Shown: piece by piece, positions 1-53,711 of the stretch
How the letters are laid out: each line of letters starts with the position of its first letter
How positions within the stretch are numbered: position 1 is the stretch's first letter
The notes under the pieces: generated by a model
Databases searched by the model: none
What the model was told of the DNA's origin: nothing
The model's input: the letters and a program-made list of their open reading frames with translations, nothing else
Made by a program: the position numbers and the translations under genes
NCBI GenBank assembly: GCA_016929135.1
Contig: JAFGJK010000065.1
Location: 71,970 to 135,969 of the forward strand
Length of the DNA: 64,000 bases
Origin: Spirochaetota bacterium
GTDB taxonomy: Bacteria > Spirochaetota > UBA4802 > UBA5550
Direction: 5' to 3'

Positions 1-66
1 AACACGCAGCGGATATAGCGATATACAATTTTTTATCGTTATCGAACGGAATAATTGAAAACTTTA

Positions 67-96
67 TTGACATTGCTGCGAGCGCTTTTTTAATCT
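67..96 (+). promoter_or_regulatory. candidate sigma70-type promoter upstream of SET-domain gene
   Basis: TTGACA (67-72), 18-nt spacer, TAATCT (91-96). It lies about 26 nt upstream of the ATG at 123, in an AT-rich leader. Confidence 0.4.
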
Positions 97-122
97 TTCT
101 GAATAATATCAGGAACGGTACA

Positions 123-662
123 ATGAAAGAATCGGCAGCGACGCATTTAAAGACAAGCCGCATAATCAAACATACCACAGACAACAATGACTTCGAAATC
201 TGGGAACAACCGGGAACCGGGCACAAGGCGCTCCATTCGCTCAGCAGGTTCGCCCCCGGGGACAGACTCGACAACTTCGGCGCCAGGCTGAAGCTGCAGC
301 AGCCCAGCTACCTTTCTGTCCAGATCAGCGCCGATGACCACATCCTTCTCAAACCGGAATACCTCCAGTACATGAACCACAGCTGTCAGCCGAATGCCCT
401 GCTGGACACCAGGGAGATGGAGGTCAGGGCGATCACCGCGATCCGGCCGGGCGATGAGATAACTTTTTTTTATCCCTCCACGGAGTGGTCCATGGCCCAG
501 GCCTTCTCCTGCCACTGCAGGTCAAGGCACTGCCTGAAGTATATCCAGGGTGCCGCCTATCTCTCCGCCGATATCTTGGAATATTACTACCTGGCAGATC
601 ATATCGAGGAGATGCTCAGGGAGCGGTCCCTCGGCGATCTCTTCGAAGAGGAGCCGGCGTAG
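123..662 (+). CDS. stand-alone SET-domain protein (putative lysine methyltransferase)
   Basis: 179-aa ORF. SET signature YMNHSCQPN, then GDEITFFY and a Cys-rich post-SET-like CHCRSRHC. AGGAA lies upstream of the ATG. Confidence 0.85.
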   Translation: MKESAATHLKTSRIIKHTTDNNDFEIWEQPGTGHKALHSLSRFAPGDRLDNFGARLKLQQPSYLSVQISADDHILLKPEYLQYMNHSCQPNALLDTREMEVRAITAIRPGDEITFFYPSTEWSMAQAFSCHCRSRHCLKYIQGAAYLSADILEYYYLADHIEEMLRERSLGDLFEEEPA

Positions 663-814
663 GGACGAGTGGGGTTTTTCAATTCATGTGCGCCTTCGGC
701 TTCTCAGCAAGCTTTTCCGGTTCCCCCCAGCGCTCGTAACGCGTGATTGTATCCGGATAAATGACCCTGAGGCTGGCGGTGGTGTCGAGCCGCGGTATCG
801 CCGCCGGGGCGATT

Positions 815-2284
815 CTATCGTCCGGCCGCCTTTCTCCTGTTCTTGACGTAATCTGAGAGGTGATCGCCGTATTTTTCCACCGCCTCCGTGAGGAAATCCG
901 TGCCGCGGATGATCCCCCTGCAGATGGGGGAGCCGCAGGTACAGGTGAAATCCTGCATCTCCTCGTTGCAGAAGGTGGCGTAATCCACGGTAATCTCCTC
1001 CCCCCGGGCGATCCTTCTCCTGGCAGTGAGGTTCAGGCCGTCGAGCCAGGCGTTGGGGTCGCATGAATGGTTGATGGGCTTCCATTCCATGGGATCGCTG
1101 CTCCACATCACCCATACCTCGTCGGTCAGTGGATAGGCGTACCGGTGGAACCAGGATTTCATCTCCCCGTCCCAGAGCCTCTCCACATGGCTTCTGCTCA
1201 CCAGGACATGCGCCTTTTCCTCGTAGTCTTCGATGACCTCCCCCTCCTCTATGTCGCAGGCGGCAGAGAGGCCGTAATGACGGTTCGGTTCGTAGGTGAG
1301 GCACCATTTCCGTTCCTGCCGGGCCCCCCGGGAGAGGGCGGCGTGGAGTATCCTCTCGATGAACCCCCTGTGCCCCTGCGAGTCGCGCATGAGGACATAA
1401 TCGGCGCTTCCCGGGGCGTCCAGAGGGCCGAAGACCGCGCAGTTGGGGTTGATCTCCAGCATGTAGGCCTCTCCGGCACCGTTGACGCGTATGTCGCAAC
1501 GTCCGTAGCCGGAGCCGTTTATACCTGCGAAGAAGCGGCATGACACCTCCTTCAGCCGCTCCGCCAGTGCTTCGTCGTCGCAGGGGGAGCATTCCATCCG
1601 CTCGTACTCTATCCACTTGAGGTCGAAATGCTTGAAGGATTCACCGTGGGGGAAGATGAATTCCACCGGTTCGTAGGCGTGGGGCGTCCGCGGATCATCG
1701 GCATTTTCCGCTACCAGGACGGTGAACTCCCTCCCCTCGATGAATTCCTCGATCAGGGCCCCTCCGTAGGCGCCGATCATGGCCCGCCCCTGCTCCACCA
1801 GGGCCGTCGGATCCTGTACGAGGGATCGTTTCGTCATGCCGATGCTGCTGTAGCTGCTGGGATGCTTGACGATCAGCGGGAAGTGCAGGGACTCCGCTGC
1901 CTGGGAAAGGCCTGCATCGTCTGATGCGAAGCAGTAGGGTGGGGTGTTGATGTCGAAGTAGCGGCAGACGCGTTTCATCGTCTCCCTGGATGGCTCGTAG
2001 AACCCCGAGGTGGCGCCGGTAAAGGGGAGCCTCATCCCCTCCAGGGCCCGCACCACGTCGATCCCGGCGCGGTCCTCGTCCCAGGCGCCGTCGCAGAGGT
2101 TCACGAACACATCGTATCCCATTTTCGACAGCTCCACTATCTGCTGCACCGACGTGGATTTGAGGAGCGGCGCGACATCCCACCGGAATCCGGAGAAGTG
2201 CCGCTCCAGGTGATGTCTGGTGTCATAGTCTTTGAAGGGGGTTGCGGATCCCTCGTAGGATGAATGGAGGATGCAGAGTTTCAT
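815..2284 (-). CDS. ATP-grasp (D-Ala-D-Ala-ligase-like) :: SET-domain fusion protein
   Basis: ORF-track 815..2464 trimmed to the ATG at 2284 (MKLCILHSSYEG), which aligns with the start of the paralog at 2374..3354. The N-terminal ~320 aa carry ATP-grasp motifs (LIVKHPSSYSSIG, LIEEFIEGREFTVLV, YMLEINPNC). The C-terminal SET domain has INHSCDPN, EEITVDY and post-SET CTCGSPICRG. Confidence 0.85.
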   Translation of the reverse strand: MKLCILHSSYEGSATPFKDYDTRHHLERHFSGFRWDVAPLLKSTSVQQIVELSKMGYDVFVNLCDGAWDEDRAGIDVVRALEGMRLPFTGATSGFYEPSRETMKRVCRYFDINTPPYCFASDDAGLSQAAESLHFPLIVKHPSSYSSIGMTKRSLVQDPTALVEQGRAMIGAYGGALIEEFIEGREFTVLVAENADDPRTPHAYEPVEFIFPHGESFKHFDLKWIEYERMECSPCDDEALAERLKEVSCRFFAGINGSGYGRCDIRVNGAGEAYMLEINPNCAVFGPLDAPGSADYVLMRDSQGHRGFIERILHAALSRGARQERKWCLTYEPNRHYGLSAACDIEEGEVIEDYEEKAHVLVSRSHVERLWDGEMKSWFHRYAYPLTDEVWVMWSSDPMEWKPINHSCDPNAWLDGLNLTARRRIARGEEITVDYATFCNEEMQDFTCTCGSPICRGIIRGTDFLTEAVEKYGDHLSDYVKNRRKAAGR

Positions 2285-2373
2285 GACGGCTCCGGCGTGG
2301 TTCCCCCTATGGTTTTTCGAAAGAGGGGGGGCGTTCCCGTGGTAGTACTGTCGGTCTGCATGGTTCCGCGCGT

Positions 2374-3354
2374 TTACAATTGCACTCTGCGGTGGGCCGC
2401 CCTGAATATGCGGTCCATGAATCCCTGGAAGCCCGAGGATTCGTTGAGTATAATATAGTCGCAACTGTAGGGCCCGGGGTACTCCAGGGGGCCGAAGATG
2501 CTGCAGTTCGGATTAATCTCCAGTACATAGGCCTCGTTTTTATCATTCAGGCGCAGATCGCACCGCCCGTAGCCGGTCCCCTGAAGGCTGGTGAAGAAGT
2601 CGCCGCAGACATCCTGCAGATACCTGCCCAGTTCCGGTTCCACCGGGGGGCCGAATTCGACCCCGATGGTGCTGTCGGACCATTTCATCGCGAAATGATC
2701 GAACGTTTCATTCTCCGGAAAGAGTATCTCCAGGGGCGGATAGACGTAGGGGGCGGAGGGATTTTCGGCATTCTCCACCACCAGGACGTTGAATTCCCTC
2801 CCTTCGATGAATTCCTCGATCAGGGCCCCCTTGTAGGTATCGATCATCTTCATCGCCTGGGTGTAGAGCTCCTCGGCGGTCTCCACACGGGAGTCCCTGG
2901 AGGTTCCGATACTTCCGTAGCTGTTCCAGTGCTTCACGATCATGGGATAGGCCAGGTTGTTGGCGGCCCAGCAGACGTCCTCCTCCTTGAAGGCCAGCTT
3001 GAAGCGGGGGGTTTGTATGTGTGCCCTGCCGCAGGCCTCCTTCATATACAGGCGAGAGGGGTCATAGAAGTCGGAATTGGCCCCCGTGAAGGGGACGTCG
3101 AGGCGCTCCAGGGTATGGACCACCTCTATCCCCGCCCTGTCTTCGTCGGCCGCGCCGTCACAGAGGTTGATGAAGAGATCGAAGCCCCGGCTCGCCATGT
3201 CCTCCACCTGCGCCACCGCCGTGTTTTTATGGATCTCGTGCATCTCCCACTGGTGGTCCTGCAGGTGGGGATCCAGGAAAAACGGATCGGTGTCATATTC
3301 AGAAAATTGCGATGAAGACTGCTCGTAGGAACTTGTGAGGACGCATAATTTCAT
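2374..3354 (-). CDS. ATP-grasp protein (D-Ala-D-Ala-ligase-like), paralog of the N-terminal part of 815..2284
   Basis: 326-aa ORF starting MKLCVLTSSYEQ. Motifs: PMIVKHWNSYGSIG, LIEEFIEGREFNVLV, YVLEINPNCS. Colinear with the neighbouring fusion protein but lacks a SET domain. Confidence 0.85.
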   Translation of the reverse strand: MKLCVLTSSYEQSSSQFSEYDTDPFFLDPHLQDHQWEMHEIHKNTAVAQVEDMASRGFDLFINLCDGAADEDRAGIEVVHTLERLDVPFTGANSDFYDPSRLYMKEACGRAHIQTPRFKLAFKEEDVCWAANNLAYPMIVKHWNSYGSIGTSRDSRVETAEELYTQAMKMIDTYKGALIEEFIEGREFNVLVVENAENPSAPYVYPPLEILFPENETFDHFAMKWSDSTIGVEFGPPVEPELGRYLQDVCGDFFTSLQGTGYGRCDLRLNDKNEAYVLEINPNCSIFGPLEYPGPYSCDYIILNESSGFQGFMDRIFRAAHRRVQL

Positions 3355-3384
3355 TCAGACCAACCCTGCTTTTGCGGAAAAATT

Positions 3385-3413
3385 TTTTTATTCACAATCA
3401 TTATTTCTGTCAA
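3385..3413 (-). promoter_or_regulatory. candidate promoter for the ATP-grasp genes
   Basis: On the minus strand: TTGACA (3413-3408), 17-nt spacer, TAAAAA (3390-3385). About 30 nt upstream of the ATG at 3354. Confidence 0.45.
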
Positions 3414-4059
3414 AGCGCTATACTTAATTATTTTTCAATTAAAAAATGAGAATCGATGGGCAAAATATAAAAAAAAATCATATCTCTATGCCGCGCGACG
3501 GCGACTCGCCGGAGCAGCCTGGCGCCTTCACCTGGGGGATCCCCCGCCTTCAATGGGCGGCAGGCATGTCGCGATGGATCCATTCTCCTCACGGAAATAC
3601 GTCATGCCTGCGGTCCCTCGTCCCTGCCGCACCCTGGGGAATCGAAAACGCCGTGGGTAATGGAGCGATATCTCCCCCAATGATCGGAACATGGACCATG
3701 GTGCTCAATGGTAAGGGAGATAATTATCTGACCGCTCCCCTGAGGGGGGGAGGTTCTCCTTTTTCATCAACCGGAGGGGGATTCAGGGTGTTTCCGGGAT
3801 CGACATTGCAGATAAGGGGCCGGTGATATCACGCGACGGTGGGGAACGCGCTGTATTTGCACCGAGAGACGCCGGAAACGCCCTTTTCCTGGAGTCCTCC
3901 TTGGGTGATAGGGCTGTACCCCGGAGGTATGCCCTGGATATATATGTACAACAATGCCATTTCCGGGCATATTAATATTGACATATATAACGGCTTTATC
4001 AAAATGTTCCCTGACCTCGTAAAGTGTTTTTATCAAAAAATCAAAAAAGGGGTGGAGAG

Positions 4060-4830
4060 ATGAAGATAGTTGTCTGCTTAAAACAGGTTCCAGACATGGA
4101 ATCAAAGTTCAAAATCATCGATGAAAAGAAGATCGATGAGTCCCAGATAGCCTTTAAAATCAATGATTTCGATAACTATGCCGTTGAAGCAGCCCTTCAG
4201 CTGAAAGAGAAGCTCGGCGGCGAGGTTGTCATCGTCAGCGCCGGCCCCGCGCGTGCCCAGAAGGACGTCCGCCAGGCCTTCGCCATGGGAGCCGACTGGG
4301 GTATCCAGATCGACGACCCGGCGGTGGAAGCAGGCGATAATTACGTAATCGCCGAGGCCCTCCAGAAGGCGATCGCCAGCATCGGCGACGTCGAGCTGGT
4401 GCTCACCGGAGTACAGGCCGAGGACGATCAGGCATCGGTTACGGGCGTCATGATGGCGCATCTGATGGACGCTCCCCATGTCACCAACGTGGTGAAGCTT
4501 GAAGTGAACGGCAAGGATCTCACGGTAAACAGAGAGCTCGCCGGCGGCAAGAACGAGGTCATCAACCTGTCAATCCCGGCGGTGCTGGCGATCCAGTCCG
4601 GTATCAATGAGCCCAGGTATCCCACACTTCCCGGCATCATGAAGGCCAAGAAGAAACGCCTTGACGTCAAGAAGGCGGCGGATTTCGGGGCCTCCGCAGC
4701 GGCGAAGACGGAATTCATCAAGATGTTTATCCCGGTTTCCGAGCACAAGGCCGAGATCATCCAGGGCGATCCCAAGACTGCGGCCGCCACGCTTGTCAAC
4801 AAGCTGAAAAACGAAGCGAAGGTATTATAG
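4060..4830 (+). CDS. etfB: electron transfer flavoprotein beta subunit
   Basis: MKIVVCLKQVPD... is a typical EtfB N-terminus. GGTGGAGAG RBS lies before the ATG at 4060. The longer ORF-track start at 4024 was rejected. Confidence 0.9.
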   Translation: MKIVVCLKQVPDMESKFKIIDEKKIDESQIAFKINDFDNYAVEAALQLKEKLGGEVVIVSAGPARAQKDVRQAFAMGADWGIQIDDPAVEAGDNYVIAEALQKAIASIGDVELVLTGVQAEDDQASVTGVMMAHLMDAPHVTNVVKLEVNGKDLTVNRELAGGKNEVINLSIPAVLAIQSGINEPRYPTLPGIMKAKKKRLDVKKAADFGASAAAKTEFIKMFIPVSEHKAEIIQGDPKTAAATLVNKLKNEAKVL

Positions 4831-7301: not shown

Positions 7302-8684
7302 TTAACCGAGAAACATGCCGTCCCGGCGCAGCGTCTCCTGCAGTAGGGGCACCGATAGCTGCCGCGGCGCGGCCTTCCCCTGGATGCACAGGGCCGCAGC
7401 GGTCCCCGCGGCCTGACCCGTCTTGTAGCACATGGGCATGATAGCCCAGGTGGCCATGGCAATGTACTGGCCGGAGATGGCGCTGCCGGCCACCATGACG
7501 TTTTCCAGCCCCCGGGGAAGCATGCACCGGAAGGGGATGGTGTACCAGGTGCCGGAGAGATGGTTGAACCGTACGTTTGTCCCCTCCGGCTCCCATACCT
7601 CGAGCCGATAGGTGCCGGTGGCGATGACGTCCTCAAATTTCTTTGCCTCCAGGATGTCCCGCTGGGTCAGGAAATAGTCCCCCCTGATCCGTCTGGTGCC
7701 GATCATGCCGACGGAGACCCCTGTATTTATCAGCCTGCTGTTGCGGAAGGCCGGGATCTCCTTTTTCAGAAAACCGGCGATCTCCCTGATCTGGCGGCGC
7801 TGCTCCATCTCACCCTGCGCCGCGTTTTCAGGATCCAACGGGTTGACATTGAAGACCCTGGTGCCGAATATCTGTATCACCCCATGGCACACCACCTGCC
7901 AGAAGAGGCCCTCCAGGGGCACGTTCAGCTCCCCCCTGCGCCGGTGCTCTTCATAGATCACCGCGGTTTCGTACATGTCCAGGTGTTCGGTGTCCACCCC
8001 GGCGATCCGGAAGGTGGTGGACGTCGGCATGATGAGGCCGGCGGGGACGCCGTCATTGTCGCCGGACCCGTACACCGCGGGTGCGCCGGCACGGGCGACT
8101 ATGTCCGCGCTCCCTGTGGCGTCGATGAAAATTCTTCCCCTGATCTGCTCCCGCCGCGTGAGCGTCTCCGCCACGATGGCCTCGACGGCGCCGTCCCGGA
8201 CGACGGTGTCGACGACGAGCGAGTTCACCCGGAGCTTCACGCCGGCCTCGTGGAGCATGTCGAAGTAGAGGAACTTCAGCTCCTCGGGATCGAAGAGGTA
8301 CCATTTGCTCGTGGCGACGTTGTCATTTTCGCCGGCGATCGGCACGAAGCGTTCCACCCCGTCGCGGAGCACCGTCTTGAGCTCAATGGCGCCAAGTTTC
8401 TGCAACCGCTCCAGTACCTCCCCCAGTATCCCGTCGTAGGGCATATCCATCTCCCCGGTCTCCACCGCGGTGTTCAGCGGCCAAGTGGCGATGGGGATCT
8501 GTGTCGACATTCCGCCGAGAAAGGGGAAGCGCTCAACAAGAACCACGCTCATGCCCCGGCGCCTGGCCGCGAGGCATGCCGCGATCCCCGCAGGTCCGCT
8601 CCCCGCCACCACCACGTCCGCCTCGGCGCCCACGGGGAGCGTCTCACCGCGGTTGCTGGTTACTTCAGTTTTTTTTCGTGCCAT
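7302..8684 (-). CDS. FAD-dependent oxidoreductase
   Basis: Rossmann dinucleotide motif VVVAGSGPAGIAACLAARRRG...LVERFPFLGG. Start set at the ATG at 8684 (MARKKTEV), which has an AGGAGGG RBS. Confidence 0.85.
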   Translation of the reverse strand: MARKKTEVTSNRGETLPVGAEADVVVAGSGPAGIAACLAARRRGMSVVLVERFPFLGGMSTQIPIATWPLNTAVETGEMDMPYDGILGEVLERLQKLGAIELKTVLRDGVERFVPIAGENDNVATSKWYLFDPEELKFLYFDMLHEAGVKLRVNSLVVDTVVRDGAVEAIVAETLTRREQIRGRIFIDATGSADIVARAGAPAVYGSGDNDGVPAGLIMPTSTTFRIAGVDTEHLDMYETAVIYEEHRRRGELNVPLEGLFWQVVCHGVIQIFGTRVFNVNPLDPENAAQGEMEQRRQIREIAGFLKKEIPAFRNSRLINTGVSVGMIGTRRIRGDYFLTQRDILEAKKFEDVIATGTYRLEVWEPEGTNVRFNHLSGTWYTIPFRCMLPRGLENVMVAGSAISGQYIAMATWAIMPMCYKTGQAAGTAAALCIQGKAAPRQLSVPLLQETLRRDGMFLG

Positions 8685-17040: not shown

Positions 17041-18567
17041 GTGAAAGAATCATATACCCGTGCCGAGGGGAGGGTGCTCCTCTTCTCGGTCTTCGTGCTG
17101 TCCCTCTGCGGGATCACCTACGAGCTTGTCCTGGGTTCCCTGGCCACCTATCTCCTGGGAAACCCGGTACTGCAGTACTCCATCACCATCGGCGTGTTCT
17201 TGAGCTCCATGGGGCTCGGTTCGTTCCTGTCCAAGTACATCACCGGGAACCTGGCGGCCGCCTTCGTACGGATCGAGATAGCCCTGGGACTCGTCGGTGG
17301 ACTCTCGGTGATGGTGCTGAGCGCCCTCTTCTCCTTCTCCTCCTCCTACTACCTGCTCCAGGTCTTCTTCCTGGTGGTGATCGGCGCCATGGTGGGGCTC
17401 GAGATACCGCTGCTCACCAGGATGCTGAAGAGCTCCGGCTCTCTCAAGGATGTTCTGGCGGGGGTTCTCTCCCTGGACTACCTGGGGGGACTCGCGGGAT
17501 CGCTCCTCTTCCCGCTCCTCCTCTTTCCCTACGCGGGGAGACTCCTCACCAGCATCCTCATCGGCATCGCCAACGTTCTGGTGGCGCTGCTGGTGATGGC
17601 CAGGGTGCAATATGAAGGGAAGAGCCGCGCTGACGTCGCCGTGGCGGTCGTCGCGGTGCTGGCCCTGGGGATGATCGCCTTCAGGTCCGAGCAGATCGGC
17701 ACGATCTTCCAGAAGCGCCTCTACTACGACGACATAGTCTACACCAGGCGGTCCCGCTACCAGGAGATCGTGCTCACCAGGAACGAGGACGATTTCCGTC
17801 TCTACCTCTCCGGATCGCTGCAGTTCTCCACGGTGGACGAATACCGCTACCACGAGATGCTGGTTTACCCGCCGCTCCTCCTCTGCCGCGGTGAGCCCGG
17901 GGAGGTGCTGGTGATGGGGGGCGGCGACGGCCTGGCGGTGCGTGACATACTGAAGTCGGACCGGGTGAGGTCGGTAACGCTGGTGGAGCTGGACAGGGCG
18001 ATGATATCTCTGGCCACGGGGAATCCCTCGATGGTGCGAATCAACAGGGGCTCCCTCTCGGACGGGAGGGTTCGCGTGGTGGTCGAGGACGCCTACAGTT
18101 ACCTGGTTCGAGAGCGGAAGCGGTTCGACGTGATCGTCGCCGACTTCCCGGATCCCCACGACGAGACAACGGCGAAGCTCTACACCACGGAATTTTTCGG
18201 TCTGGTGAAGAGGTCGCTGAAACCGGGGGGTATCTTCGTCACGCAGTCCACGTCACCTCTTTTCGCCTCCAGCGCCTTCTGGTGCATCAACGCCACCATG
18301 AAGCAGGTCTTCGCAGCGGTGGTTCCTTACCACGCCTACGTCCCCACCTTCGGGGACTGGGGGTTCAACATCGCATCGTCGGGGCCGATCGATCCCGGGG
18401 CCATGAGGGAACCCCCCGGGGGCTGCCGTTTTTTTTCCAGGGATGCCTTTACCGCGGCGATGCACTTCACCGAGGATATCGCGGAACGCGAGGTGAAGAT
18501 CAACACCTTCAACAGGCCGGTGCTGTACACCTACTATCTGAAGGGATGGAGGATCAGCGTCGATTGA
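17041..18567 (+). CDS. membrane-anchored spermidine-synthase-like polyamine aminopropyltransferase homolog
   Basis: 508 aa. About 7 N-terminal TM helices, then a SpeE-like domain (VLVMGGGDGLAVRDILK, VIVADFPDPHDETTAKLYTTEFF, GGIFVTQSTSP). GTG start. Confidence 0.85.
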   Translation: MKESYTRAEGRVLLFSVFVLSLCGITYELVLGSLATYLLGNPVLQYSITIGVFLSSMGLGSFLSKYITGNLAAAFVRIEIALGLVGGLSVMVLSALFSFSSSYYLLQVFFLVVIGAMVGLEIPLLTRMLKSSGSLKDVLAGVLSLDYLGGLAGSLLFPLLLFPYAGRLLTSILIGIANVLVALLVMARVQYEGKSRADVAVAVVAVLALGMIAFRSEQIGTIFQKRLYYDDIVYTRRSRYQEIVLTRNEDDFRLYLSGSLQFSTVDEYRYHEMLVYPPLLLCRGEPGEVLVMGGGDGLAVRDILKSDRVRSVTLVELDRAMISLATGNPSMVRINRGSLSDGRVRVVVEDAYSYLVRERKRFDVIVADFPDPHDETTAKLYTTEFFGLVKRSLKPGGIFVTQSTSPLFASSAFWCINATMKQVFAAVVPYHAYVPTFGDWGFNIASSGPIDPGAMREPPGGCRFFSRDAFTAAMHFTEDIAEREVKINTFNRPVLYTYYLKGWRISVD

Positions 18568-43888: not shown

Positions 43889-44537
43889 GAAGATCGTGGT
43901 AACGGGCGGCCCCACCAGAGAGTGGATAGACCCGGTGCGGTACATCTCGAATCCCTCCTCGGGGAAGATGGGTGCGGCCCTGGCGGACGCCGCTGCCCCA
44001 CTGGCCAGGGAGACCGTCTTTATCCACGGACCGGTCTCCCCGGTTCTTGTGCAGGGGAAGCCCTACCGGTGCGTTTCGGTCTCCACCACCAGGGACATGC
44101 TGGATGCGGTCCTCGGGGAGATGGAAGACCAGGCGGTGCTCATCATGGCGGCGGCGCCGGCCGACTACAGGCCCGCAGAGACGCTTACGGAGAAGATGAA
44201 AAAGGGTGGCGATGAGATCACCCTGCATCTGGTGAAGAATCCTGACATCCTCATGGAGGTGGCGGAGCGCAGGAAGGGGGGGGCGTGGAATGACCTCTTC
44301 GTGGCCGGCTTCGCCGCGGAGACCACGGACACCGAGTCCTATGCGATGGAGAAGCTGGTGAAGAAGAACCTGGACATGATATGCCTGAACGACGTTTCCG
44401 CCGCCGGGGCCGGCTTTGCCGGCGACACCAACATCATCACCATCTTCACCCGGGTGGGATCGCGAATCGAGCTGCCGGTGCAGGCCAAGGGGTCTGCCGC
44501 GGCGAGGATCATCGACTGTATCATGGAGGCGCTCTAG
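43872..44537 (+). CDS. coaB: phosphopantothenate--cysteine ligase (CoaB)
   Basis: KIVVTGGPTREWIDPVRYISNPSSGKMG and AAAPADYRP motifs. The ATG at 43872 overlaps the coaC end by 17 nt in another frame. Confidence 0.85.
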   Translation: MSLRDRKIVVTGGPTREWIDPVRYISNPSSGKMGAALADAAAPLARETVFIHGPVSPVLVQGKPYRCVSVSTTRDMLDAVLGEMEDQAVLIMAAAPADYRPAETLTEKMKKGGDEITLHLVKNPDILMEVAERRKGGAWNDLFVAGFAAETTDTESYAMEKLVKKNLDMICLNDVSAAGAGFAGDTNIITIFTRVGSRIELPVQAKGSAAARIIDCIMEAL

Positions 44538-44608
44538 GGCCATGCGTATCCCGGTCTCTTGGATCGGGGTTATCGTGAGCGGGATCATCATTTTTTTTAA
44601 GGTAACCA

Positions 44609-45418
44609 GTGGACACGATCACTATCACGATCACTGAGACAGAGAGAAAACGCCTGATATTGTTGGCGGAAGATGTGATCAAGAGCGGACATTGGGGTAA
44701 CGCTGTAGTTGAGATACCCGAAGAGTCTCGGCTCTTTGAGGTTTTCCAGCGGTCTGCCGGAACTATCGAGATGTCCGTTAGCCAGGTAGCTTTGCTGATG
44801 AACTGGTTAATGGAGGGAACCGGTTACGGTATGATTCTGTTGGGCGAAGATGTTTCGATTCTCCAGAAGATTGCATACAAACTCTATAGGTTTTATAATT
44901 ACCGCAAGGAAGCATGTATTCGTGAACTTGAGAATGTATCTGAACTTATCAAGAAATCCGAGAATCTGCTGCCGGGTAAAGGCTTTAATCTTCCCCTGGA
45001 GCACTTGCGGGAGTTAGAGGATGTTGAAAGAAACGAAGCATACAGACGGCTCAGGCAGAGTATCGATTCATATGAAGCGAGAGAGGACGATGTTGGATCT
45101 GTAGAAGCGGAAAATGTGAGTGATAACGATGCATCGTTTCATAACGGGGCAGTGAAGGAAAGGTACGAAACGGGCATCAATCGCTCTCGCAATACTGGTG
45201 TAACCTTGGGGAAAGTGTATACCGAAGGTGAAGATTTAAATCCAGACAGCGATGGAATAGAAACATCCGGTAAGTCTTTTTTTTCTCGTATCTTTAGTAC
45301 GAAAAAGAAAACAAAAAAAGCTCTCGATACAAATTCAATCGGGGAATCCATCAATGCAAAGGAGTTAGTCCAAAAAACCGAAAAAATTGCGAAAAGGATT
45401 GGTAAAAGGGGGAGATAG
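44609..45418 (+). CDS. hypothetical protein (AT-richer orphan)
   Basis: 269 aa, GTG start. Charged/helical with a Lys-rich C-terminus. No family recognised. The DNA is visibly AT-richer than its neighbours. Confidence 0.5.
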   Translation: MDTITITITETERKRLILLAEDVIKSGHWGNAVVEIPEESRLFEVFQRSAGTIEMSVSQVALLMNWLMEGTGYGMILLGEDVSILQKIAYKLYRFYNYRKEACIRELENVSELIKKSENLLPGKGFNLPLEHLRELEDVERNEAYRRLRQSIDSYEAREDDVGSVEAENVSDNDASFHNGAVKERYETGINRSRNTGVTLGKVYTEGEDLNPDSDGIETSGKSFFSRIFSTKKKTKKALDTNSIGESINAKELVQKTEKIAKRIGKRGR

Positions 45419-45553
45419 GACATATTATTACGCTTCATTGAAGTCAAGAGTAATAGAGATTTGTTTCAAGATGTGCCTTGCCAGATACATGCACGATGTT
45501 GTTGCTTTTCATTCCGCGAACCTGCGGGAATCCATCACACAGGAGGTCATAAT

Positions 45554-46489
45554 ATGAAGAAAGCACTTATTAGCCTTTCGGTCGCCCTGGGTGCGCTGGC
45601 GGTGATTCTCGTGGGCGTCTATTATCTCCTTCCCGGAGCGGTGCTCGGGGTTATGGTGAAGGCCATGAGATTGAATGCCGGTGTCGAATTGAAGACGGTC
45701 ACCGTGGAGGGCATGACCTGGCCCTATCTCGAGGGCGGTACCGGGGACACGGTGCTCATAATCCACGGTTTCGGCGCGGAGAAGGACATGTGGGGAGAGC
45801 TCCTGCCGGCATTGACGAAGAAATACAGGGTGATAGCTCCAGACCTGCCGGGTTTCGGAGAGAATTCCAGGAACCCCTCTGCCGACTATAGTATACCGGC
45901 CCAGGCCGAACGGGTACACGCCTTCGCACAGAAAATCGGCCTGAAACGATTCAACCTGATCGGACATTCCATGGGAGGGGCCATATCCGCATATTACGCG
46001 TCCCTTTACCCCGAGACGGTCGGCGGGCTCGTGCTGATGAACTCCTTCGGCCTTCGGACGCCTTTGGTGAGCGACGGAGAGGTCCTTCTGAAGAAGGGGA
46101 AAAGGTTCCTGCTGTACCGAAACGAGTCCCAGTACGACAGGACAATGGGGATTGTGTTCCTGCATCCCCCCGCACTCCCGAGTCATTTCAAGCGGTATCT
46201 CGCGGCAATTGGTGCAAAAAACTTTCAAGTCCACAGTAGGATATTCGACTCGCTCTCCCGTGAGGGATTCGATTTTCTGAGAAGTCGGTTGCCGATGATA
46301 AAGGCGCGGACCCTCGTCCTGTGGGGCGAGAAGGACCGGGTCTTTGACGTGAGCTGCGCCGCGGAGTACTGCAAGGGGATCCGGTCGTGCAGGGCCGTCG
46401 TCGTCCCGGAGAGCGGGCACATGGTATTCATGGATACACCGGCAGAATCGATCGCGGCGGTGACCGCCTTTCTCGGAGAGGTGAAGTAA
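45554..46489 (+). CDS. alpha/beta-fold hydrolase with N-terminal membrane anchor
   Basis: ATG at 45554 after AGGAGG. VLIIHGFGAEKDMW, nucleophile elbow GHSMGG, C-terminal SGHMVFMD. Confidence 0.85.
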   Translation: MKKALISLSVALGALAVILVGVYYLLPGAVLGVMVKAMRLNAGVELKTVTVEGMTWPYLEGGTGDTVLIIHGFGAEKDMWGELLPALTKKYRVIAPDLPGFGENSRNPSADYSIPAQAERVHAFAQKIGLKRFNLIGHSMGGAISAYYASLYPETVGGLVLMNSFGLRTPLVSDGEVLLKKGKRFLLYRNESQYDRTMGIVFLHPPALPSHFKRYLAAIGAKNFQVHSRIFDSLSREGFDFLRSRLPMIKARTLVLWGEKDRVFDVSCAAEYCKGIRSCRAVVVPESGHMVFMDTPAESIAAVTAFLGEVK

Positions 46490-49676: not shown

Positions 49677-52600
49677 TTACTCGATTATCGGCAGTGTTAC
49701 CGTGAACTCGCTTCCGCTCCCCTCGATACTGTGCACTATAATCGAACCCCCGTGAAAATCAATGATCTTTTTTGTTATTGCGAGCCCCAGCCCGGCCCCT
49801 TGGTTCTTCACCGCCTCGTCGACGGAGACCTGCTCGAAGGGCTCGAATATCCGATCCCAGTGCTCCCGGGGGATTCCCGGCCCCTGGTCCCATACGGTAA
49901 TCTCGGCGGACTTCTCCTTTTTCGACGCGATGATGCCGATCGACGTACCCTCGCCGGTGAATTTGATCGCGTTGGAAAAGAGGTTCGAGACCACCTGCCT
50001 GAGGCGGGTGGCATCGCCTCTGACCAAGCCGAGGTTCCGGTCGATGGAGGACTCCACCACCAGCCGTTTCTCCACCGCCAGCGGCATTATCGCGGCGACG
50101 GACCTGGTGAGCAGCTTGCTCAGGTCGATGCTTGCGCGCTCCATCTTCATGGTGCCTGCATGGATCTTTGATATGTCCAGCAGCTCCTGTATGATGTCCA
50201 GCAGGTGATGGCCGCTCTCGTCGATGCTCCTGATGTATTCCATCTGCTTGCTGTTGATCGCCCCGATCCGCTGCATCTCCAGCAGCCTGCAGTATCCCAG
50301 TATGCTGTTAAGCGGGGTCTTCAACTCGTGGCTTATATTGGCTATGAAGGCGCTCTTCGCGTGATTTGCGGCCTTCGCGGCGTTCATCGCCTCGATGATC
50401 TGGCGCTGTATCTCCTTGATCTCAGTCACATCCGTTACCACCCCCCTGAAACCGGAGGGTATTCCCGATTCGTAGATGATAGAGTTGCTTATGAGCACGT
50501 GAACCATGGACCCGTCGCTGCGGATCAGCTCGTACTCCACCGGATTGATCCTTCCCATGGTGAGAAGATCCTGGGTGTCCAGGGTCAGACGCCGGTAGTC
50601 GTCCGTCGAGAAGAAGGCCGAGATGTGAATGCCCCGGTCGAATTCCTCCCGGGAGTATCCGGTCAATTCGATCGCATGGTCGTTCACATACAGTATGTTC
50701 CCCTTCCTGTCCGTCTCGTAGATGATCGCCGGCAGGAGGTCCGCCAGGTCCCGGAACCGTTTTTCGCTCGCCCTGAGCAGTTCCTCAGCGTTCTTTTCCA
50801 TTGTGATATCGATGATTACGCCCCTGATGCCGGTGACGGCGCCGGTCTCGTCGAGGATGGGAGACGAATGGGCGACGATGGGAAAGCGGGCTCCGTCCTT
50901 TTTGATGGCGGTGTACTCCGAGGTTATGAACCGTTCGCCAGCCATGGCCCTCTTGAAATTGTCCCACAGCCGTTCGTGTTCTTCCGGGGCGATTATCCTG
51001 TCGATCCTCAGCCCCGCATCGATGTCCTGCAGGGAGTAGCCGGTTAACTCGCTGCCGATGCGGTTGGTGTATCTGATGATCCCCTCGGTGTCCGTTTCGT
51101 AGACGATGTCCGGGAGCTGGTTCACCAGGTCCCGGAACCGCTTCTCGCTTTTCTGCCGCATCCGCTCCGCGCGCCTGATCTCGGTCAGGTCGACCACCAC
51201 GCCCCGCATCCCCCGGTTCCTGCCGTCGAGATAAAAAATGGAAACCTGGACGAGCACGGGATACCGCGTGCCGTCCTTCTTGATCGCGATGTATTCCCGC
51301 CAGGTCACCGTCCCCTTGGTGATCAAAGAGCCGATATTCATGAACAGCTTTTCGTGGTCCTCCGGCGCGACAAAGTCCTGCGGATGGAGCCCCGAGTAGA
51401 TGTCCTCCCTCGTAAAGCCGGTGATCTCGAGCCCGGCCCTGTTTATGTAGTTGATTCTTCCCCCGGCGTTCCCCTCGAAGACGATTACCGGCAGCATGTC
51501 GGTCATCTCGCGGAATCTGGACTCGCTCTCCTTGAGCAGCTCCTCGGTTTTTTTCCTGAACTGGATCTCGTATTCAAGCTTTCCTATCGTTTCGGTGAGG
51601 CGCGCGGTGCGGTCCTTGACCTGTGCCTCCAGGTTCTCGTGGTATTCCTCCAGCACCTCAATCATCCGCTTGTCTTCGTCGATGTCGCGGATAATCGCCA
51701 GGACGCTCTCTTTCGACTGTCCCTCGATCGTGCTCAGCTTGATTTCGGTATAGAACCTGCCGCGGGCCGGGGTCGACATGACCAGCTCGAATGACTGGGG
51801 GCGGCCGCGCAGCGTTTCGGCGATACAGGCCCCTATAAGGTCCTTGGCGAGCACCCCACCCGGCTGTGCCGCCGAGGAGAAGGAATCCAGCGTGGTGCCG
51901 ATAACCTCCTTCCGCGAGAGCCCCAGCGTCGTATAGGTCATCTCGTTGCAGGTTCTGATCTTGCCGTCTTGAAGGATCAGCATTGCGTCGTTGGCCGACT
52001 GAAACACCGAGAGGAAAGAGCTGGTGATGTCGGAAAGGGCCTTGTGCATGACCGATATCTGCATCATTTCATCGGCGTAGGACATTGCCATGATGGAGAC
52101 GATTCCCAGATAGGCGTATTCCGTGAGATACACGAAGTGGTACAGGTCTATGCCCACCATGAAGTCATTGAGCATCATGAGAAACCCGATACCCAGGGCG
52201 ATCAGCAGAGGTCCCGCCTTTCGCCGGTCACCGGTTTTATACATGAGGAAGGAGCGGTAGATAAGGTAGATGTATGTGGCAAAGGAAAACAGGAGCTGCA
52301 GGACGCCCAACGACCCGTATGCCGATTTTACTATCCGGAATCGGATCCCCCCGGGAAGATCGACGGTTTTTATCACCTCCTCGCCGGTCAGCCATTGCAG
52401 CCCGTTGATGTCGAGTATGCCGAGCACTATACAAATCCCGAAGAGAAACGAGAGGGCGTAGAATGTTTTCAGCCGGATAAGGACTGAGTGCTCGCGCAGG
52501 AACCACAGGAATGTCGGCATGATGACGGCGATGCAGATGAATTTCATTCGTTGTATCAGGATGGCCGCGTCGATAGCATCGGTATTGTACGATAGGCCCG

Positions 52601-52766
52601 ACAGAATGCCGTAGGCACCCATTATCAGACAGGTTATTGAGAAGAAGATGAAATCCCTGCGGTCCCGTCTTCGTATGTATATGATGAAATAGAATATTCC
52701 GGTGGCAATGGTTACGCCGGCCAGGAGTATCGGGGGTAGGGCCTGTAGCTTCATAGATGAATACAC
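49677..52766 (-). CDS. 7TMR-DISM multi-PAS sensor histidine kinase
   Basis: 1029 aa. About 7 N-terminal TM helices, four or five PAS/PAC repeats, H-box ISHELKTPLNSILGY, and N/G boxes (NLFSNAIKFT, GAGLGLAITKKIIDFHGG). Confidence 0.9.
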   Translation of the reverse strand: MYSSMKLQALPPILLAGVTIATGIFYFIIYIRRRDRRDFIFFSITCLIMGAYGILSGLSYNTDAIDAAILIQRMKFICIAVIMPTFLWFLREHSVLIRLKTFYALSFLFGICIVLGILDINGLQWLTGEEVIKTVDLPGGIRFRIVKSAYGSLGVLQLLFSFATYIYLIYRSFLMYKTGDRRKAGPLLIALGIGFLMMLNDFMVGIDLYHFVYLTEYAYLGIVSIMAMSYADEMMQISVMHKALSDITSSFLSVFQSANDAMLILQDGKIRTCNEMTYTTLGLSRKEVIGTTLDSFSSAAQPGGVLAKDLIGACIAETLRGRPQSFELVMSTPARGRFYTEIKLSTIEGQSKESVLAIIRDIDEDKRMIEVLEEYHENLEAQVKDRTARLTETIGKLEYEIQFRKKTEELLKESESRFREMTDMLPVIVFEGNAGGRINYINRAGLEITGFTREDIYSGLHPQDFVAPEDHEKLFMNIGSLITKGTVTWREYIAIKKDGTRYPVLVQVSIFYLDGRNRGMRGVVVDLTEIRRAERMRQKSEKRFRDLVNQLPDIVYETDTEGIIRYTNRIGSELTGYSLQDIDAGLRIDRIIAPEEHERLWDNFKRAMAGERFITSEYTAIKKDGARFPIVAHSSPILDETGAVTGIRGVIIDITMEKNAEELLRASEKRFRDLADLLPAIIYETDRKGNILYVNDHAIELTGYSREEFDRGIHISAFFSTDDYRRLTLDTQDLLTMGRINPVEYELIRSDGSMVHVLISNSIIYESGIPSGFRGVVTDVTEIKEIQRQIIEAMNAAKAANHAKSAFIANISHELKTPLNSILGYCRLLEMQRIGAINSKQMEYIRSIDESGHHLLDIIQELLDISKIHAGTMKMERASIDLSKLLTRSVAAIMPLAVEKRLVVESSIDRNLGLVRGDATRLRQVVSNLFSNAIKFTGEGTSIGIIASKKEKSAEITVWDQGPGIPREHWDRIFEPFEQVSVDEAVKNQGAGLGLAITKKIIDFHGGSIIVHSIEGSGSEFTVTLPIIE

Positions 52767-52873
52767 CGAACTCTCCCGGGGAGTCTACCATCCTTGATAA
52801 ATAATTCAACAATAATATACAGAAATTGATGAACATTTCCTGTCCGCATTCCCGTAGAAAATTGAGCGCGGTG

Positions 52874-52902
52874 TTGCTGGTACATTGTAATTTTTGTATA
52901 TT
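52874..52902 (+). promoter_or_regulatory. candidate promoter of the J-domain gene
   Basis: TTGCTG (52874-52879), 17-nt spacer, TATATT (52897-52902). Confidence 0.45.
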
Positions 52903-52929
52903 AATATTTAATGAATTTATAGAATATTG

Positions 52930-53562
52930 ATGGCCAGGGATCATTACAAAACACTGGGTGTTTCGCGAGATGCCACTGATGCTGCCATAAAGGAAGCCTA
53001 CCGGAGGTGTGTTAAGAGGCATCATCCCGACCTGCACTGCGATCATGCCTGTCAGGAGCGGATACGGGAGATCAACGAGGCCTATGAGGTGCTGGGCAAC
53101 AGCGAGCGGCGGGACCAATATGACATATATTTAAGCGCCCATGAGCGGCGTGCCGCCTCCTCCCGGGATTTCGGGAAATCGGAGCGATATCGAGCTTATT
53201 CCGGGTGGGGGGGCGATGTCGGGGGGTGGAGCCGTGACGGTGCCGCCCGGGGCATCACTGATCCGTGGGATTGCTTCGAGATGCCCTATGAGCTGTTGGT
53301 CTATCTTTCACGCCGGGAGGCTGGAGAGGGTGTCCGCGCCACCATCGCAGTGACATATCCCCTGCGATGCACCCAGTGTGGCGGTACCGGGACCTGGTAC
53401 GGCATCATACCCTGCTCATCCTGTCTGGGGCAGGGTTTTAGTGAGAATACTGTCCCGGTCCGTGTGGAAGTCCCTCCCGGTACGGAGCATGGCGATATCA
53501 TTAGGGCCAGGGGTGGTTTCTACGGGGATATGATGTTTCACTGCAGGATTATCATCGAATAG
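52930..53562 (+). CDS. J-domain protein with a single CxxCxGxG zinc-finger unit (truncated DnaJ-like)
   Basis: DHYKTLGVSRDATDAAIKEAYRRCVKRHHPD (HPD motif). CTQCGGTG...CSSCLGQG. Confidence 0.8.
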   Translation: MARDHYKTLGVSRDATDAAIKEAYRRCVKRHHPDLHCDHACQERIREINEAYEVLGNSERRDQYDIYLSAHERRAASSRDFGKSERYRAYSGWGGDVGGWSRDGAARGITDPWDCFEMPYELLVYLSRREAGEGVRATIAVTYPLRCTQCGGTGTWYGIIPCSSCLGQGFSENTVPVRVEVPPGTEHGDIIRARGGFYGDMMFHCRIIIE

Positions 53563-53613
53563 ATTCGCCTTTCCGAAAAAAAGCACAATAACAGAAAAAA
53601 ACTAGCACAGAAC

Positions 53614-53642
53614 TTGACGTTCCAATGGAGAAGCAGTATATT
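53614..53642 (+). promoter_or_regulatory. near-consensus sigma70-type promoter of hsp20
   Basis: TTGACG (53614-53619), 17-nt spacer, TATATT (53637-53642). Confidence 0.65.
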
Positions 53643-53656
53643 GTTATTACAAGTTG

Positions 53657-53683: not shown

Positions 53684-53711
53684 CAACTGGCTTGATTAAA
53701 GGAGGTTTGTC

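What the first reader, a model, noticed from the sequence alone, without database searches (positions are those of the whole stretch)
123..3354. Cluster of a stand-alone SET-domain protein, an ATP-grasp::SET fusion and a paralogous ATP-grasp
**Seen in the sequence.**
- Three adjacent genes.
- A 179-aa SET protein on the plus strand (NHSCQPN + CHCRSRHC).
- Converging on it, two Ddl-like ATP-grasp paralogs that start almost identically (MKLCILHSSYEG / MKLCVLTSSYEQ).
- The distal ATP-grasp carries a complete C-terminal SET + post-SET domain (NHSCDPN, CTCGSPICRG).

**Established knowledge.**
- SET domains are protein lysine methyltransferases and are sporadic in bacteria.
- ATP-grasp enzymes ligate amino acids to peptides, proteins or metabolites (Ddl, RimK, TTL-type).

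**Inference.**
- The physical fusion plus duplication suggests a two-step modification system acting on one substrate (ligation plus methylation).
- I am not aware of a characterised ATP-grasp/SET system.
Basis: partly seen in the sequence, partly recalled or inferred. Interest (0 to 1): 0.75.

Follow-up and report, generated by a model that had tools for sequence, protein, structure and literature searches.

The report
Amino-acid ligase fused to SET methyltransferase
Three adjacent genes in a spirochaete genome encode two D-Ala-D-Ala-ligase-like ATP-grasp enzymes, one fused to a SET methyltransferase, plus a small SET enzyme related to BurB, the one solved SET enzyme that methylates a free amino acid. 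They belong to a widespread, uncharacterised module that probably builds a methylated amino-acid-derived small molecule rather than modifying a protein.

Summary
Window 123-662 (+) encodes a 179-aa SET protein (SET1). 815-2284 (-) encodes a 489-aa Ddl-like ATP-grasp::SET+post-SET fusion (FUS). 2374-3354 (-) encodes a 326-aa paralogous ATP-grasp (AG2, 48% identical to the FUS ligase half).

FUS belongs to a large, highly conserved, uncharacterised family. It was found in at least 274 species-level genomes of Acidobacteriota, Chlorobium, Methylococcales, Rhodothermales, Chloroflexota, Gemmatimonadota, Spirochaetota and cyanobacteria, and in green algae.

- A SET1-type gene lies next to FUS in about 25 of 80 loci from seven or more phyla, and is fused to FUS in several proteins.
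- Extra ATP-grasp genes and exporters (a shared ABC family, MATE) recur beside the pair.
- The ligase keeps the ATP-grasp catalytic residues but fails the Ddl tests (about 80 vs 243 bits; Tyr216 replaced by Trp).
- By sequence profile and fold, SET1 is closest to BurB, a SET enzyme that S-methylates free methionine.

The most likely function is a ligation-plus-methylation pathway to a small, sometimes exported, metabolite (confidence about 0.5). The substrate is unknown. A protein or peptide target is not excluded. I found no published characterisation.

The parts
123..662 (+). SET1: stand-alone 179-aa minimal SET + post-SET methyltransferase of the BurB-like family
   Evidence: Pfam SET E 8.9e-10. 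The best PDB sequence hit is BurB 9l4t, E 1.4e-13. The family profile hits BurB at E 2.1e-23 over its full length, against 1.6e-8 for the best lysine methyltransferase. The AF2 model (pLDDT 91.9) best matches BurB, TM 0.70-0.73. Invariant family motif: FFYPSTEW.M...F.C.C....C.
1319..2284 (-). FUS, N-terminal Ddl-like ATP-grasp ligase domain (about residues 1-322)
   Evidence: Pfam Dala_Dala_lig_C E 5.9e-16. NCBIfam Ddl models score 79.5 bits against a cut-off of 243. This part of the AF2 model has pLDDT around 90, and the top 50 PDB fold hits are all Ddl or the related D-Ala-D-Lac ligase (TM 0.65-0.80, 16-23% identity). The catalytic residues Lys223, Arg262, Asp264, Glu277 and Asn279 are invariant. 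Ddl Tyr216 is replaced by an invariant Trp224.
815..1318 (-). FUS, C-terminal SET + post-SET domain with a conserved C-terminal helical extension (about residues 323-489, plus stop codon)
   Evidence: Pfam SET E 6.4e-11 at residues 337-435. NHSCDPN, the DY435 tyrosine and C448-x-C450-x4-C455 are invariant in 32 homologues. The profile hits BurB (E 3.5e-14, C-terminal half only) and KMT2A (E 2e-13, full domain). hhalign against the SET1 family gives probability 99.1%, E 7.9e-19 over 138 columns, including the extension after post-SET.
2374..3354 (-). AG2: stand-alone 326-aa paralogous Ddl-like ATP-grasp ligase, upstream of FUS on the same strand (89-nt gap)
   Evidence: Pfam Dala_Dala_lig_C E 2.4e-17. 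48% identical to FUS residues 1-319. It keeps 84 of 101 FUS-invariant positions, including the catalytic ones. It differs consistently at 11 positions, among them W68 to A/S, and K218 to D/N and D221 to A/G in the lid (omega-loop) motif. Orthologues lie next to FUS in the sister MAG (67% identical) and in L095 (55% identical).

Best explanation
The cluster encodes a small-molecule pathway that couples ATP-dependent amide-bond formation to SAM-dependent methylation.

**Proposed mechanism**
1. The core is the bifunctional FUS enzyme. Its Ddl-like ATP-grasp domain activates a carboxylate as an acyl phosphate and joins it to an amine. The substrates are most likely two amino acids or amino-acid-like metabolites.
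2. The fused SET domain methylates a nucleophilic N or S atom of that substrate or product.
3. SET1, a BurB-like minimal SET enzyme, adds a further or different methylation.
4. AG2, whose lid and pocket residues differ from those of FUS, adds a second ligation step.
5. The product would be a methylated, possibly onium (sulfonium or quaternary ammonium), di- or tri-peptide-like metabolite. In lineages where ABC or MATE exporters are attached, it would be exported.

**Shown**
- Domain identities.
- Intact catalytic motifs.
- Non-Ddl substrate residues.
- BurB-likeness of SET1.
- Co-conservation, gene fusions and exporter linkage.

**Inferred**
- That the substrate is a small molecule.
- The order of steps.
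- The nature of the product.
For: 1. The ligase domains belong to the Ddl structural clade, whose characterised members ligate small molecules. The top 50 fold hits are all Ddl or the related D-Ala-D-Lac ligase. The catalytic Lys, Arg, Asp, Glu and Asn are invariant.
2. SET1 is specifically BurB-like. BurB is the free-methionine S-methyltransferase (PMC12542666). Profile E 2.1e-23 over the full length against 1.6e-8 for the best lysine methyltransferase. The fold hit to BurB has E 1.5e-10 and TM about 0.7, against about 1e-5 for lysine methyltransferases.
3. The FUS SET domain is homologous to the SET1 family across the whole domain, including the extension after post-SET (hhalign 99.1%). Its catalytic half scores best against BurB.
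4. Functional linkage. A SET1-type gene is adjacent to FUS in about 25 of 80 loci in Spirochaetota, Rhodothermales, Methylococcales, Chlorobiaceae, Chloroflexota, a delta-proteobacterium and others. Fused forms exist: ATP-grasp::SET::SET1, SET1::ATP-grasp, ATP-grasp::SET::SET1::ATP-grasp, and 4xSET1+FUS in Mesostigma.
5. Exporters recur.
   - One ABC exporter family follows FUS in 11 Chlorobium and Methylococcales loci and precedes AG2-like plus FUS in L095, where it is 40% identical.
   - MATE follows the pair in Nostoc.
   - An ABC membrane protein follows the set in L097.
6. A SET1 homologue lies next to an NRPS, as BurB does in its PKS-NRPS cluster.
7. In Acidobacteria FUS stands alone with no conserved neighbour. 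This fits a self-contained enzyme acting on common metabolites.
8. No conserved small ORF that could be a precursor peptide is seen in the operons.
Against: - No substrate is identified, and nothing here measures chemistry.
- The FUS SET domain is a complete canonical SET (N-SET, I-SET insert, C-SET, post-SET). It is about as similar to KMT2-type histone methyltransferases over its whole length as to BurB over half.
- The AF2 model of the FUS SET half is poor (pLDDT about 40-70), so no pocket analysis was possible.
- Some relatives fuse the ligase to a clostripain-type peptidase C11, which could point to peptide or protein substrates.
- The high conservation (55-60% identity across phyla) would also fit a universal protein target.
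- This window contains no orthologue of the ABC exporter. Only a generic ABC ATPase at about 62.9 kb was found.
Confidence: 0.5

Rival explanations
1. A protein or peptide modification system. The ATP-grasp domains add amino acids to a protein or peptide, in the manner of RimK or TTL. The SET domains methylate lysines of the same target.
For: - Apart from BurB/MSMT, characterised SET domains are protein-lysine methyltransferases. The FUS SET domain matches KMT2A/KMT2D and ASH1L over its full length (E about 1e-12).
- Strong cross-phylum conservation fits a conserved target.
- ATP-grasp::peptidase C11 fusions exist.
- TTLL12 shows that SET-like and ATP-grasp modules can be paired in a protein implicated in histone and tubulin modification.
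Against: - The ligase is of the Ddl type, not the RimK or TTL type. To my knowledge no Ddl-clade enzyme is known to modify proteins.
- SET1 is BurB-like.
- No candidate substrate gene is co-conserved.
- Exporters and an NRPS are the recurrent neighbours.
Confidence: 0.25
2. A specific sulfonium version, nested within the best explanation. SET1, and perhaps the FUS SET domain, S-methylate methionine or a methionine residue as BurB does. The ligases build an S-methylmethionine-containing peptide or a related sulfonium osmolyte or precursor.
For: - BurB is the closest solved relative of SET1.
- The aromatic pocket tyrosine is kept: BurB Tyr124 corresponds to SET1 Tyr117 and FUS Tyr435. The SAM-binding histidine of the (N/L)HSC motif is kept too.
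Against: - SET1 is only about 27-33% identical to BurB. BurB binds methionine through main-chain atoms, so specificity cannot be read from the sequence.
- No BurI/BurD/BurE-type decarboxylase, aminotransferase or aldehyde dehydrogenase is linked.
Confidence: 0.12
3. The ATP-grasp genes are ordinary or spare D-Ala-D-Ala (or D-Ala-D-X) ligases for cell-wall synthesis, and the SET parts are incidental.
For: The best family and fold matches are Ddl.
Against: - Scores are far below every Ddl cut-off (79.5 and 76.7 bits against 243).
- Ddl Tyr216 is replaced by an invariant Trp. The Ser150 equivalent is variable. The HGRGGEDG loop is replaced by CDGAWDEDR.
- There is no mur/ftsQ context.
- The SET fusion is conserved in thousands of sequences.
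Confidence: 0.03
4. Chance adjacency of unrelated or decaying genes.
For: In the window SET1 is convergent with FUS rather than co-transcribed.
Against: - All ORFs are intact with invariant catalytic motifs.
- The trio is conserved in the sister MAG.
- The pair is conserved across phyla and is also found fused.
Confidence: 0.02

Closest known systems
BurB / MSMT (SET-domain L-methionine S-methyltransferase of the DMSP methylation pathway; PDB 9l4t, 9l4v; PMC12542666)
   Same: SET1 has the same size (179 vs 172 aa), the same minimal SET + post-SET fold (TM about 0.7) and full-length profile homology (E 2e-23). It keeps the pocket Tyr and the SAM-binding His. The FUS SET domain shares the catalytic half and the extension after post-SET.
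   Different: Identity is only about 27-33%. SET1 has its own invariant FFYPSTEW motif. It is linked to Ddl-like ligases, not to the BurI/BurD/BurE decarboxylase, aminotransferase and dehydrogenase set. Its substrate is untested.
D-alanine-D-alanine ligase (Ddl) and the related L-amino-acid ligases of the ATP-grasp superfamily
   Same: Same three-domain ATP-grasp fold (TM 0.65-0.80). The catalytic Lys, Arg, Asp, Glu and Asn for acyl-phosphate chemistry are kept.
   Different: 16-23% identity, far below the Ddl family cut-offs. The substrate-site residues are changed (Tyr216 to Trp; HGRGGEDG to CDGAWDEDR). The ligase is fused to a SET domain and has no cell-wall gene context.
Ngg, the bifunctional GNAT + ATP-grasp enzyme that makes the osmolyte N-acetylglutaminylglutamine amide (recalled from Sagot et al. 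2010 PNAS; not checked here)
   Same: The logic is the same: one polypeptide joins a dipeptide-forming ATP-grasp ligase to a group-transfer domain that modifies the same small molecule.
   Different: The tailoring domain is an acetyltransferase, not a SET methyltransferase. The ATP-grasp belongs to a different clade. This is an analogy only.
TTLL12 (eukaryotic SET-like + tubulin-tyrosine-ligase-like protein; PMC3520985)
   Same: It pairs a SET-type module with an ATP-grasp-type module in one protein.
   Different: The domain order is reversed. The ATP-grasp is of the TTL clade, not the Ddl clade. According to the abstract it does not catalyse histone methylation. It is implicated in histone and tubulin (protein) modification. 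No homology beyond superfamily level was tested here.
Canonical SET protein-lysine methyltransferases (KMT2/MLL, SETD2, ASH1L)
   Same: The FUS SET domain has NHSC, the (E/D)xxxDY tyrosine and the post-SET CxCx4C motif. It matches KMT2A over the full domain (E 2e-13).
   Different: There are no chromatin-reader or partner domains. The domain is fused to a small-molecule-type ligase. Its partner SET1 is BurB-like. No protein substrate is known.

Membership tests
D-alanine-D-alanine ligase (Ddl, housekeeping) | Scores above the curated NCBIfam/TIGRFAM Ddl cut-offs | tested here: not met
   Best model NF002378: 79.5 bits (FUS) and 76.7 bits (AG2) against a cut-off of 243. TIGR01205: 71 and 68.5 bits against 245.65.
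D-alanine-D-alanine ligase (Ddl, housekeeping) | ATP-grasp catalytic residues (E. coli DdlB Lys215, Arg255, Asp257, Glu270, Asn272) | tested here: met
   The equivalents Lys223, Arg262, Asp264, Glu277 and Asn279 are invariant in 32 FUS homologues and present in AG2.
D-alanine-D-alanine ligase (Ddl, housekeeping) | D-Ala site triad Glu15-Ser150-Tyr216 and the HGxxGEDG loop | tested here: not met
   Tyr216 is replaced by an invariant Trp224 (His in the Nostoc-type FUS). The Ser150 equivalent varies (S/G/A/N). The loop reads CDGAWDEDR.
D-alanine-D-alanine ligase (Ddl, housekeeping) | Location in a cell-wall/division (mur-ftsQ) context | tested here: not met
   The neighbours are etfBA, an MFS transporter, a FAD oxidoreductase and TetR. 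Just outside the window lie a TauE-like gene and proS.
BurB/MSMT-type SET small-molecule methyltransferase (tested for SET1) | Full-length sequence-profile homology to BurB, clearly better than to lysine methyltransferases | tested here: met
   Profile against PDB: BurB E 2.1e-23 (profile positions 18-149). The next hit is KMT2D, E 1.6e-8, C-terminal half only.
BurB/MSMT-type SET small-molecule methyltransferase (tested for SET1) | Same minimal SET fold | tested here: met
   The AF2 model (pLDDT 91.9) has 9l4t and 9l4v as its top three hits (E 1.5e-10, TM 0.70-0.73). Lysine methyltransferases score about 1e-5.
BurB/MSMT-type SET small-molecule methyltransferase (tested for SET1) | Pocket Tyr (BurB Tyr124) and SAM-binding His (His93) | tested here: met
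   Tyr117 is invariant and His86 nearly invariant in the SET1 family. Their roles are taken from PMC12542666.
BurB/MSMT-type SET small-molecule methyltransferase (tested for SET1) | Catalyses Met to S-methylmethionine | not testable with these tools
   BurB binds methionine through main-chain atoms, so specificity cannot be inferred from the sequence.
BurB/MSMT-type SET small-molecule methyltransferase (tested for SET1) | Linked to SMM decarboxylase, aminotransferase and aldehyde dehydrogenase genes (BurI/BurD/BurE) | tested here: not met
   None were found next to SET1 or FUS in the window, the sister MAG or 80 other loci.
SET-domain protein-lysine methyltransferase | SET domain with the NHSC motif, the catalytic-pocket Tyr and the post-SET Cys cluster | tested here: met
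   Pfam SET scores 39-43 bits against a cut-off of 22.4. The motifs are invariant.
SET-domain protein-lysine methyltransferase | Methylates lysine of a protein substrate | not testable with these tools
   No co-conserved candidate substrate gene was found. The model of the FUS SET half is of low confidence.
TTLL12-type SET + TTL protein | N-terminal SET-like domain followed by a TTL-family ATP-grasp | tested here: not met
   The order here is ATP-grasp then SET. The ligase matches Dala_Dala_lig_C. TTL is not among the Pfam matches with E-value up to 0.01.

The most novel reading that the evidence does not exclude
SET-domain methyltransferases, fused or paired with Ddl-like ligases, define a widespread and so far unrecognised route to a new class of methylated (sulfonium or quaternary-ammonium) amino-acid or dipeptide metabolites. 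The producers would include soil Acidobacteria, green sulfur bacteria, methanotrophs, cyanobacteria and green algae. If so, small-molecule chemistry would be a major, not exceptional, role of bacterial SET domains.
Probability: 0.4. Interest if true: 0.78.

Novelty: new variant of a known kind. Interest (0 to 1): 0.62.

Why it matters
Bacterial SET proteins are usually read as histone-mimicking effectors or protein-lysine methyltransferases. Here a SET domain is welded to a dipeptide-type ligase in thousands of environmental sequences. Its recurrent partner is the closest relative of BurB, the one solved SET enzyme known to methylate a free amino acid.

If the product is a methylated onium compound, it could be an unrecognised osmolyte, signal or secreted metabolite. 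The lineages involved are abundant and hard to culture: Acidobacteriota, Chlorobium, Methylococcales and cyanobacteria. It would also bear on methyl-group and possibly sulfur cycling.

The family is compact, one to three genes. It occurs in a cultured strain, Chlorobium ferrooxidans DSM 13031, so it can be tested directly.

Tried and rejected
- **Regulatory signals.** Promoter and terminator scans of 1-4100 gave no more sites than shuffled sequence. Rfam scans of the window region and of five related loci found no riboswitch or leader that could hint at a ligand.
- **Neighbourhood mining.** ORF clustering and a Pfam scan of 132 immediate neighbours covered the 80 loci. Beyond SET1 and the ABC exporter, everything was lineage-specific synteny, for example GCV_T in Bryobacterales.
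- **RiPP idea.** The operons have no conserved small ORF. The 52-aa ORF between two ligase genes in L092 looks spurious.
- **Full-length FUS model.** It was meant to show how the two active sites relate. The ligase half is good but the SET half has pLDDT about 40-70, so it was used only for the Ddl fold match.
- **Plasmid collection.** It gave a single 25%-identical Ddl-like hit, next to a KamA-family gene. This was not informative.
- **Literature.** Searches found no paper on this architecture. Iyer et al. 2009 (Mol BioSyst), the ATP-grasp amidoligase survey most likely to mention it, is not held.
- **DMSP pathway.** Rejected as a whole-pathway reading because the downstream genes are absent.
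- **Housekeeping Ddl.** Rejected on scores, residues and context.


Full report
**1. What is there**

The window's first 3.4 kb holds three intact genes.
- SET1: 123-662 (+), 179 aa.
- FUS: 815-2284 (-), 489 aa.
- AG2: 2374-3354 (-), 326 aa.

AG2 and FUS are co-directional with an 89-nt gap. FUS and SET1 converge, with a 152-nt gap. Pfam finds SET in SET1 (E 8.9e-10), Dala_Dala_lig_C (residues 124-280) plus SET (337-435) in FUS, and Dala_Dala_lig_C in AG2.

The mechanical ORF for FUS extends to a TTG at 2464. The ATG at 2284 gives the N-terminus shared by all homologues and by a 100%-identical 489-aa database protein. NCBI names that protein 'SET domain-containing protein-lysine N-methyltransferase [Spirochaetes bacterium]'.

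AG2 is 48% identical to the FUS ligase half. SET1 is 33% identical to the FUS SET half over 91 aa.

**2. The ligase domains**

NCBIfam Ddl models hit both proteins, but at about 70-80 bits against cut-offs of about 245. A model of FUS is confident for the ligase half (pLDDT about 90). Its top 50 PDB fold matches are all Ddl or the related D-Ala-D-Lac ligase (TM 0.65-0.80, 16-23% identity).

I compared alignments to P. aeruginosa DdlB and to E. coli DdlB.
- The acyl-phosphate machinery is invariant. Lys215, Arg255, Asp257, Glu270 and Asn272 correspond to Lys223, Arg262, Asp264, Glu277 and Asn279.
- The substrate-site residues differ. Tyr216 is an invariant Trp. The Ser150 equivalent is variable. 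The HGRGGEDG loop reads CDGAWDEDR.

These are therefore active-looking carboxylate-amine ligases of the Ddl clade, but not D-Ala-D-Ala ligases. The genomic context is etfBA, an MFS transporter, a FAD oxidoreductase, TetR and peptidase M29, not cell-wall genes.

AG2 keeps 84 of 101 FUS-invariant positions. It differs consistently, together with its orthologues, at 11 positions. These include W68 to A/S, and K218 to D/N and D221 to A/G in the lid (omega-loop) motif, where FKHFDLKW becomes FDHFAMKW. This suggests the same chemistry on a different substrate (inference).

**3. The SET domains**

Both have the NHSC motif, the pocket tyrosine (SET1 Tyr117, FUS Tyr435) and a post-SET CxCx4C cluster.

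SET1's closest solved relative is BurB, a 172-aa SET enzyme that S-methylates free L-methionine to S-methylmethionine (PMC12542666).
- Single sequence against PDB: E 1.4e-13.
- Family profile: E 2.1e-23 over the full length, against 1.6e-8 for the best lysine methyltransferase, which matches only the C-terminal half.
- A confident SET1 model (pLDDT 91.9) best matches the BurB crystal structures: E 1.5e-10, TM 0.70-0.73, 27-28% identity. Lysine methyltransferases follow at about 1e-5.

The FUS SET domain is a complete canonical SET with an I-SET insert.
- Its profile matches BurB over the catalytic half (E 3.5e-14) and KMT2A over the whole domain (E 2e-13) about equally.
- It aligns with the SET1 family across the whole domain, including a conserved helical extension after post-SET (hhalign probability 99.1%, E 7.9e-19).

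**4. Distribution**

FUS belongs to a large family.
- More than 4,500 of the 8,000 scored candidates had E below 1e-3. The top 120 all share the same architecture at 55-69% identity.
- The 50%-identity representative library gave 320 clusters at E below 1e-30.
- A pattern-limited scan of one genome per species found 274 loci. They come from Bryobacterales, Pyrinomonadaceae, Blastocatellia, Chloracidobacterium, Rhodothermales/Balneolaceae, Caldilineales/Anaerolineae, Gemmatimonadota, Chlorobium (including the cultured C. ferrooxidans DSM 13031), Methylococcales, Spirochaetota, Actinomycetota and Rifleibacteriota.
- Cyanobacteria (Nostoc) and green algae (Volvox, Mesostigma) also carry it.
- Mean column identity among 32 homologues is 72%, which indicates a strongly constrained function.

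**5. Linkage**

- In Acidobacteria FUS stands alone, and its neighbours are only lineage-specific synteny.
- A SET1-type gene lies directly beside FUS in about 25 of 80 loci from at least seven phyla, with 30-49% identity to SET1.
- The trio AG2-FUS-SET1 is conserved in the sister MAG, where FUS is 69%, AG2 67% and SET1 49% identical.
- L095 has ABC exporter, then an AG2 orthologue (55%), then FUS (57%, cut by the contig end).
- L097, a 44%-GC contig, has SET1 (46%), then a different and more divergent Ddl-like ligase, then FUS (39%), then an ABC membrane protein.
- Single polypeptides combine the parts.
  - ATP-grasp::SET::SET1 occurs in four representative clusters, two of them seen on several contigs.
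  - SET1::ATP-grasp also occurs.
  - ATP-grasp::SET::SET1::ATP-grasp also occurs.
  - Mesostigma has four SET1 domains plus FUS in one protein.
- In Chlorobium and Methylococcales (11 loci) the operon is SET1, FUS, then an MsbA-like ABC exporter. That exporter is 40% identical to the one in L095.
- In Nostoc a MATE transporter follows the pair.
- One SET1 homologue sits beside an NRPS and a C39-ABC exporter. Another sits in an acyl-CoA gene set.

**6. Interpretation**

The evidence points to one pathway that couples amide-bond formation with methylation. FUS is the self-sufficient core. SET1, extra ligases and exporters are add-ons.

I favour a small-molecule substrate for five reasons:
- the ligase clade is one that joins small molecules;
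- SET1 is BurB-like;
- the FUS SET domain is related to SET1;
- exporters and an NRPS recur as neighbours;
- no co-conserved protein or precursor-peptide gene is found.

My working model, all of it inference, is as follows.
1. The ligase joins two amino-acid-like substrates.
2. The SET domains methylate a side-chain or terminal N or S, possibly to an onium group.
3. AG2 adds a further residue.

I cannot name the substrates. A protein or peptide target remains a serious rival (about 0.25). The FUS SET domain is canonical, the family is very conserved, and some relatives fuse the ligase to a clostripain-type peptidase.

**7. Known or new**

Full-text searches found no description of a bacterial ATP-grasp::SET enzyme. 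A review of bacterial SET proteins does not mention one. The survey most likely to have predicted it, Iyer et al. 2009, could not be read.

[quoted passage not shown] Databases label family members either 'D-alanine-D-alanine ligase' or 'protein-lysine N-methyltransferase'. Both labels are probably misleading.

I rate this a new variant of known kinds: an ATP-grasp amino-acid ligase with a tailoring methyltransferase, and a BurB-type small-molecule SET enzyme. Interest is 0.62. The architecture is real, widespread, compact and testable, but the chemistry is unresolved.

Noticed in passing
L001:5739-6134 and L002:12562-12957 (just beyond window position 1, divergent from SET1): A 131-aa TauE/SafE-family membrane protein gene lies immediately upstream of SET1 in both spirochaete MAGs, followed by proS. 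It is half the usual TauE length. It could be the exporter counterpart of the ABC and MATE genes seen elsewhere, or simply a neighbour.
   Followed up: partly
L071:11707-12069 (also L067, L072-L074, L081, L082 and, more weakly, L086): In Chlorobium loci a third, 120-aa minimal SET gene follows the ABC exporter downstream of SET1-FUS (Pfam SET E 3e-11 for L071). All loci are from Chlorobium or Chlorobiaceae, so the linkage may be mere synteny.
   Followed up: partly
P0344 (Mesostigma viride, gene model next to the 4xSET1+FUS protein P0267) and P0345: ATP-grasp of this family is fused to a clostripain-type peptidase C11 domain. This may be a synthetase/amidase pairing, or a hint of peptide substrates.
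   Followed up: partly
L092:4788-6993: Two tandem stand-alone ligase genes of this family (50% identical to each other) with no SET gene nearby, so ligase-only versions of the system exist.
   Followed up: no
window 3355-4023: A roughly 670-nt stretch between AG2 and etfB holds only low-GC3 ORFs. The sister MAG has a 298-aa gene with no Pfam match, and a signal-peptide-like N-terminus, in the corresponding position (L002:7610-8506).
   Followed up: no
window 17041-18567 (+): A 508-aa protein has a spermidine/spermine synthase domain only in residues 268-446. The N-terminal 260 aa have no Pfam match at the threshold used.
   Followed up: no
window 44001-46000 and 52001-54000: GC drops to 0.50-0.52 against about 0.60 elsewhere, with positive GC skew. 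These may be horizontally acquired segments.
   Followed up: no
L049:5578-5652 (-): A sub-threshold Rfam match to the group II intron domain (34.7 bits against a gathering score of 40, E 0.0045), about 2 kb upstream of the Methylococcales SET1-FUS-ABC operon.
   Followed up: no
Plasmid NC_019941.1 (Thioflavicoccus mobilis) 7778-8656: A distant (25% identical) Ddl-like ATP-grasp gene is annotated next to a KamA-family radical SAM (lysine aminomutase-like) gene. This is another Ddl-like ligase in an amino-acid-tailoring context.
   Followed up: no
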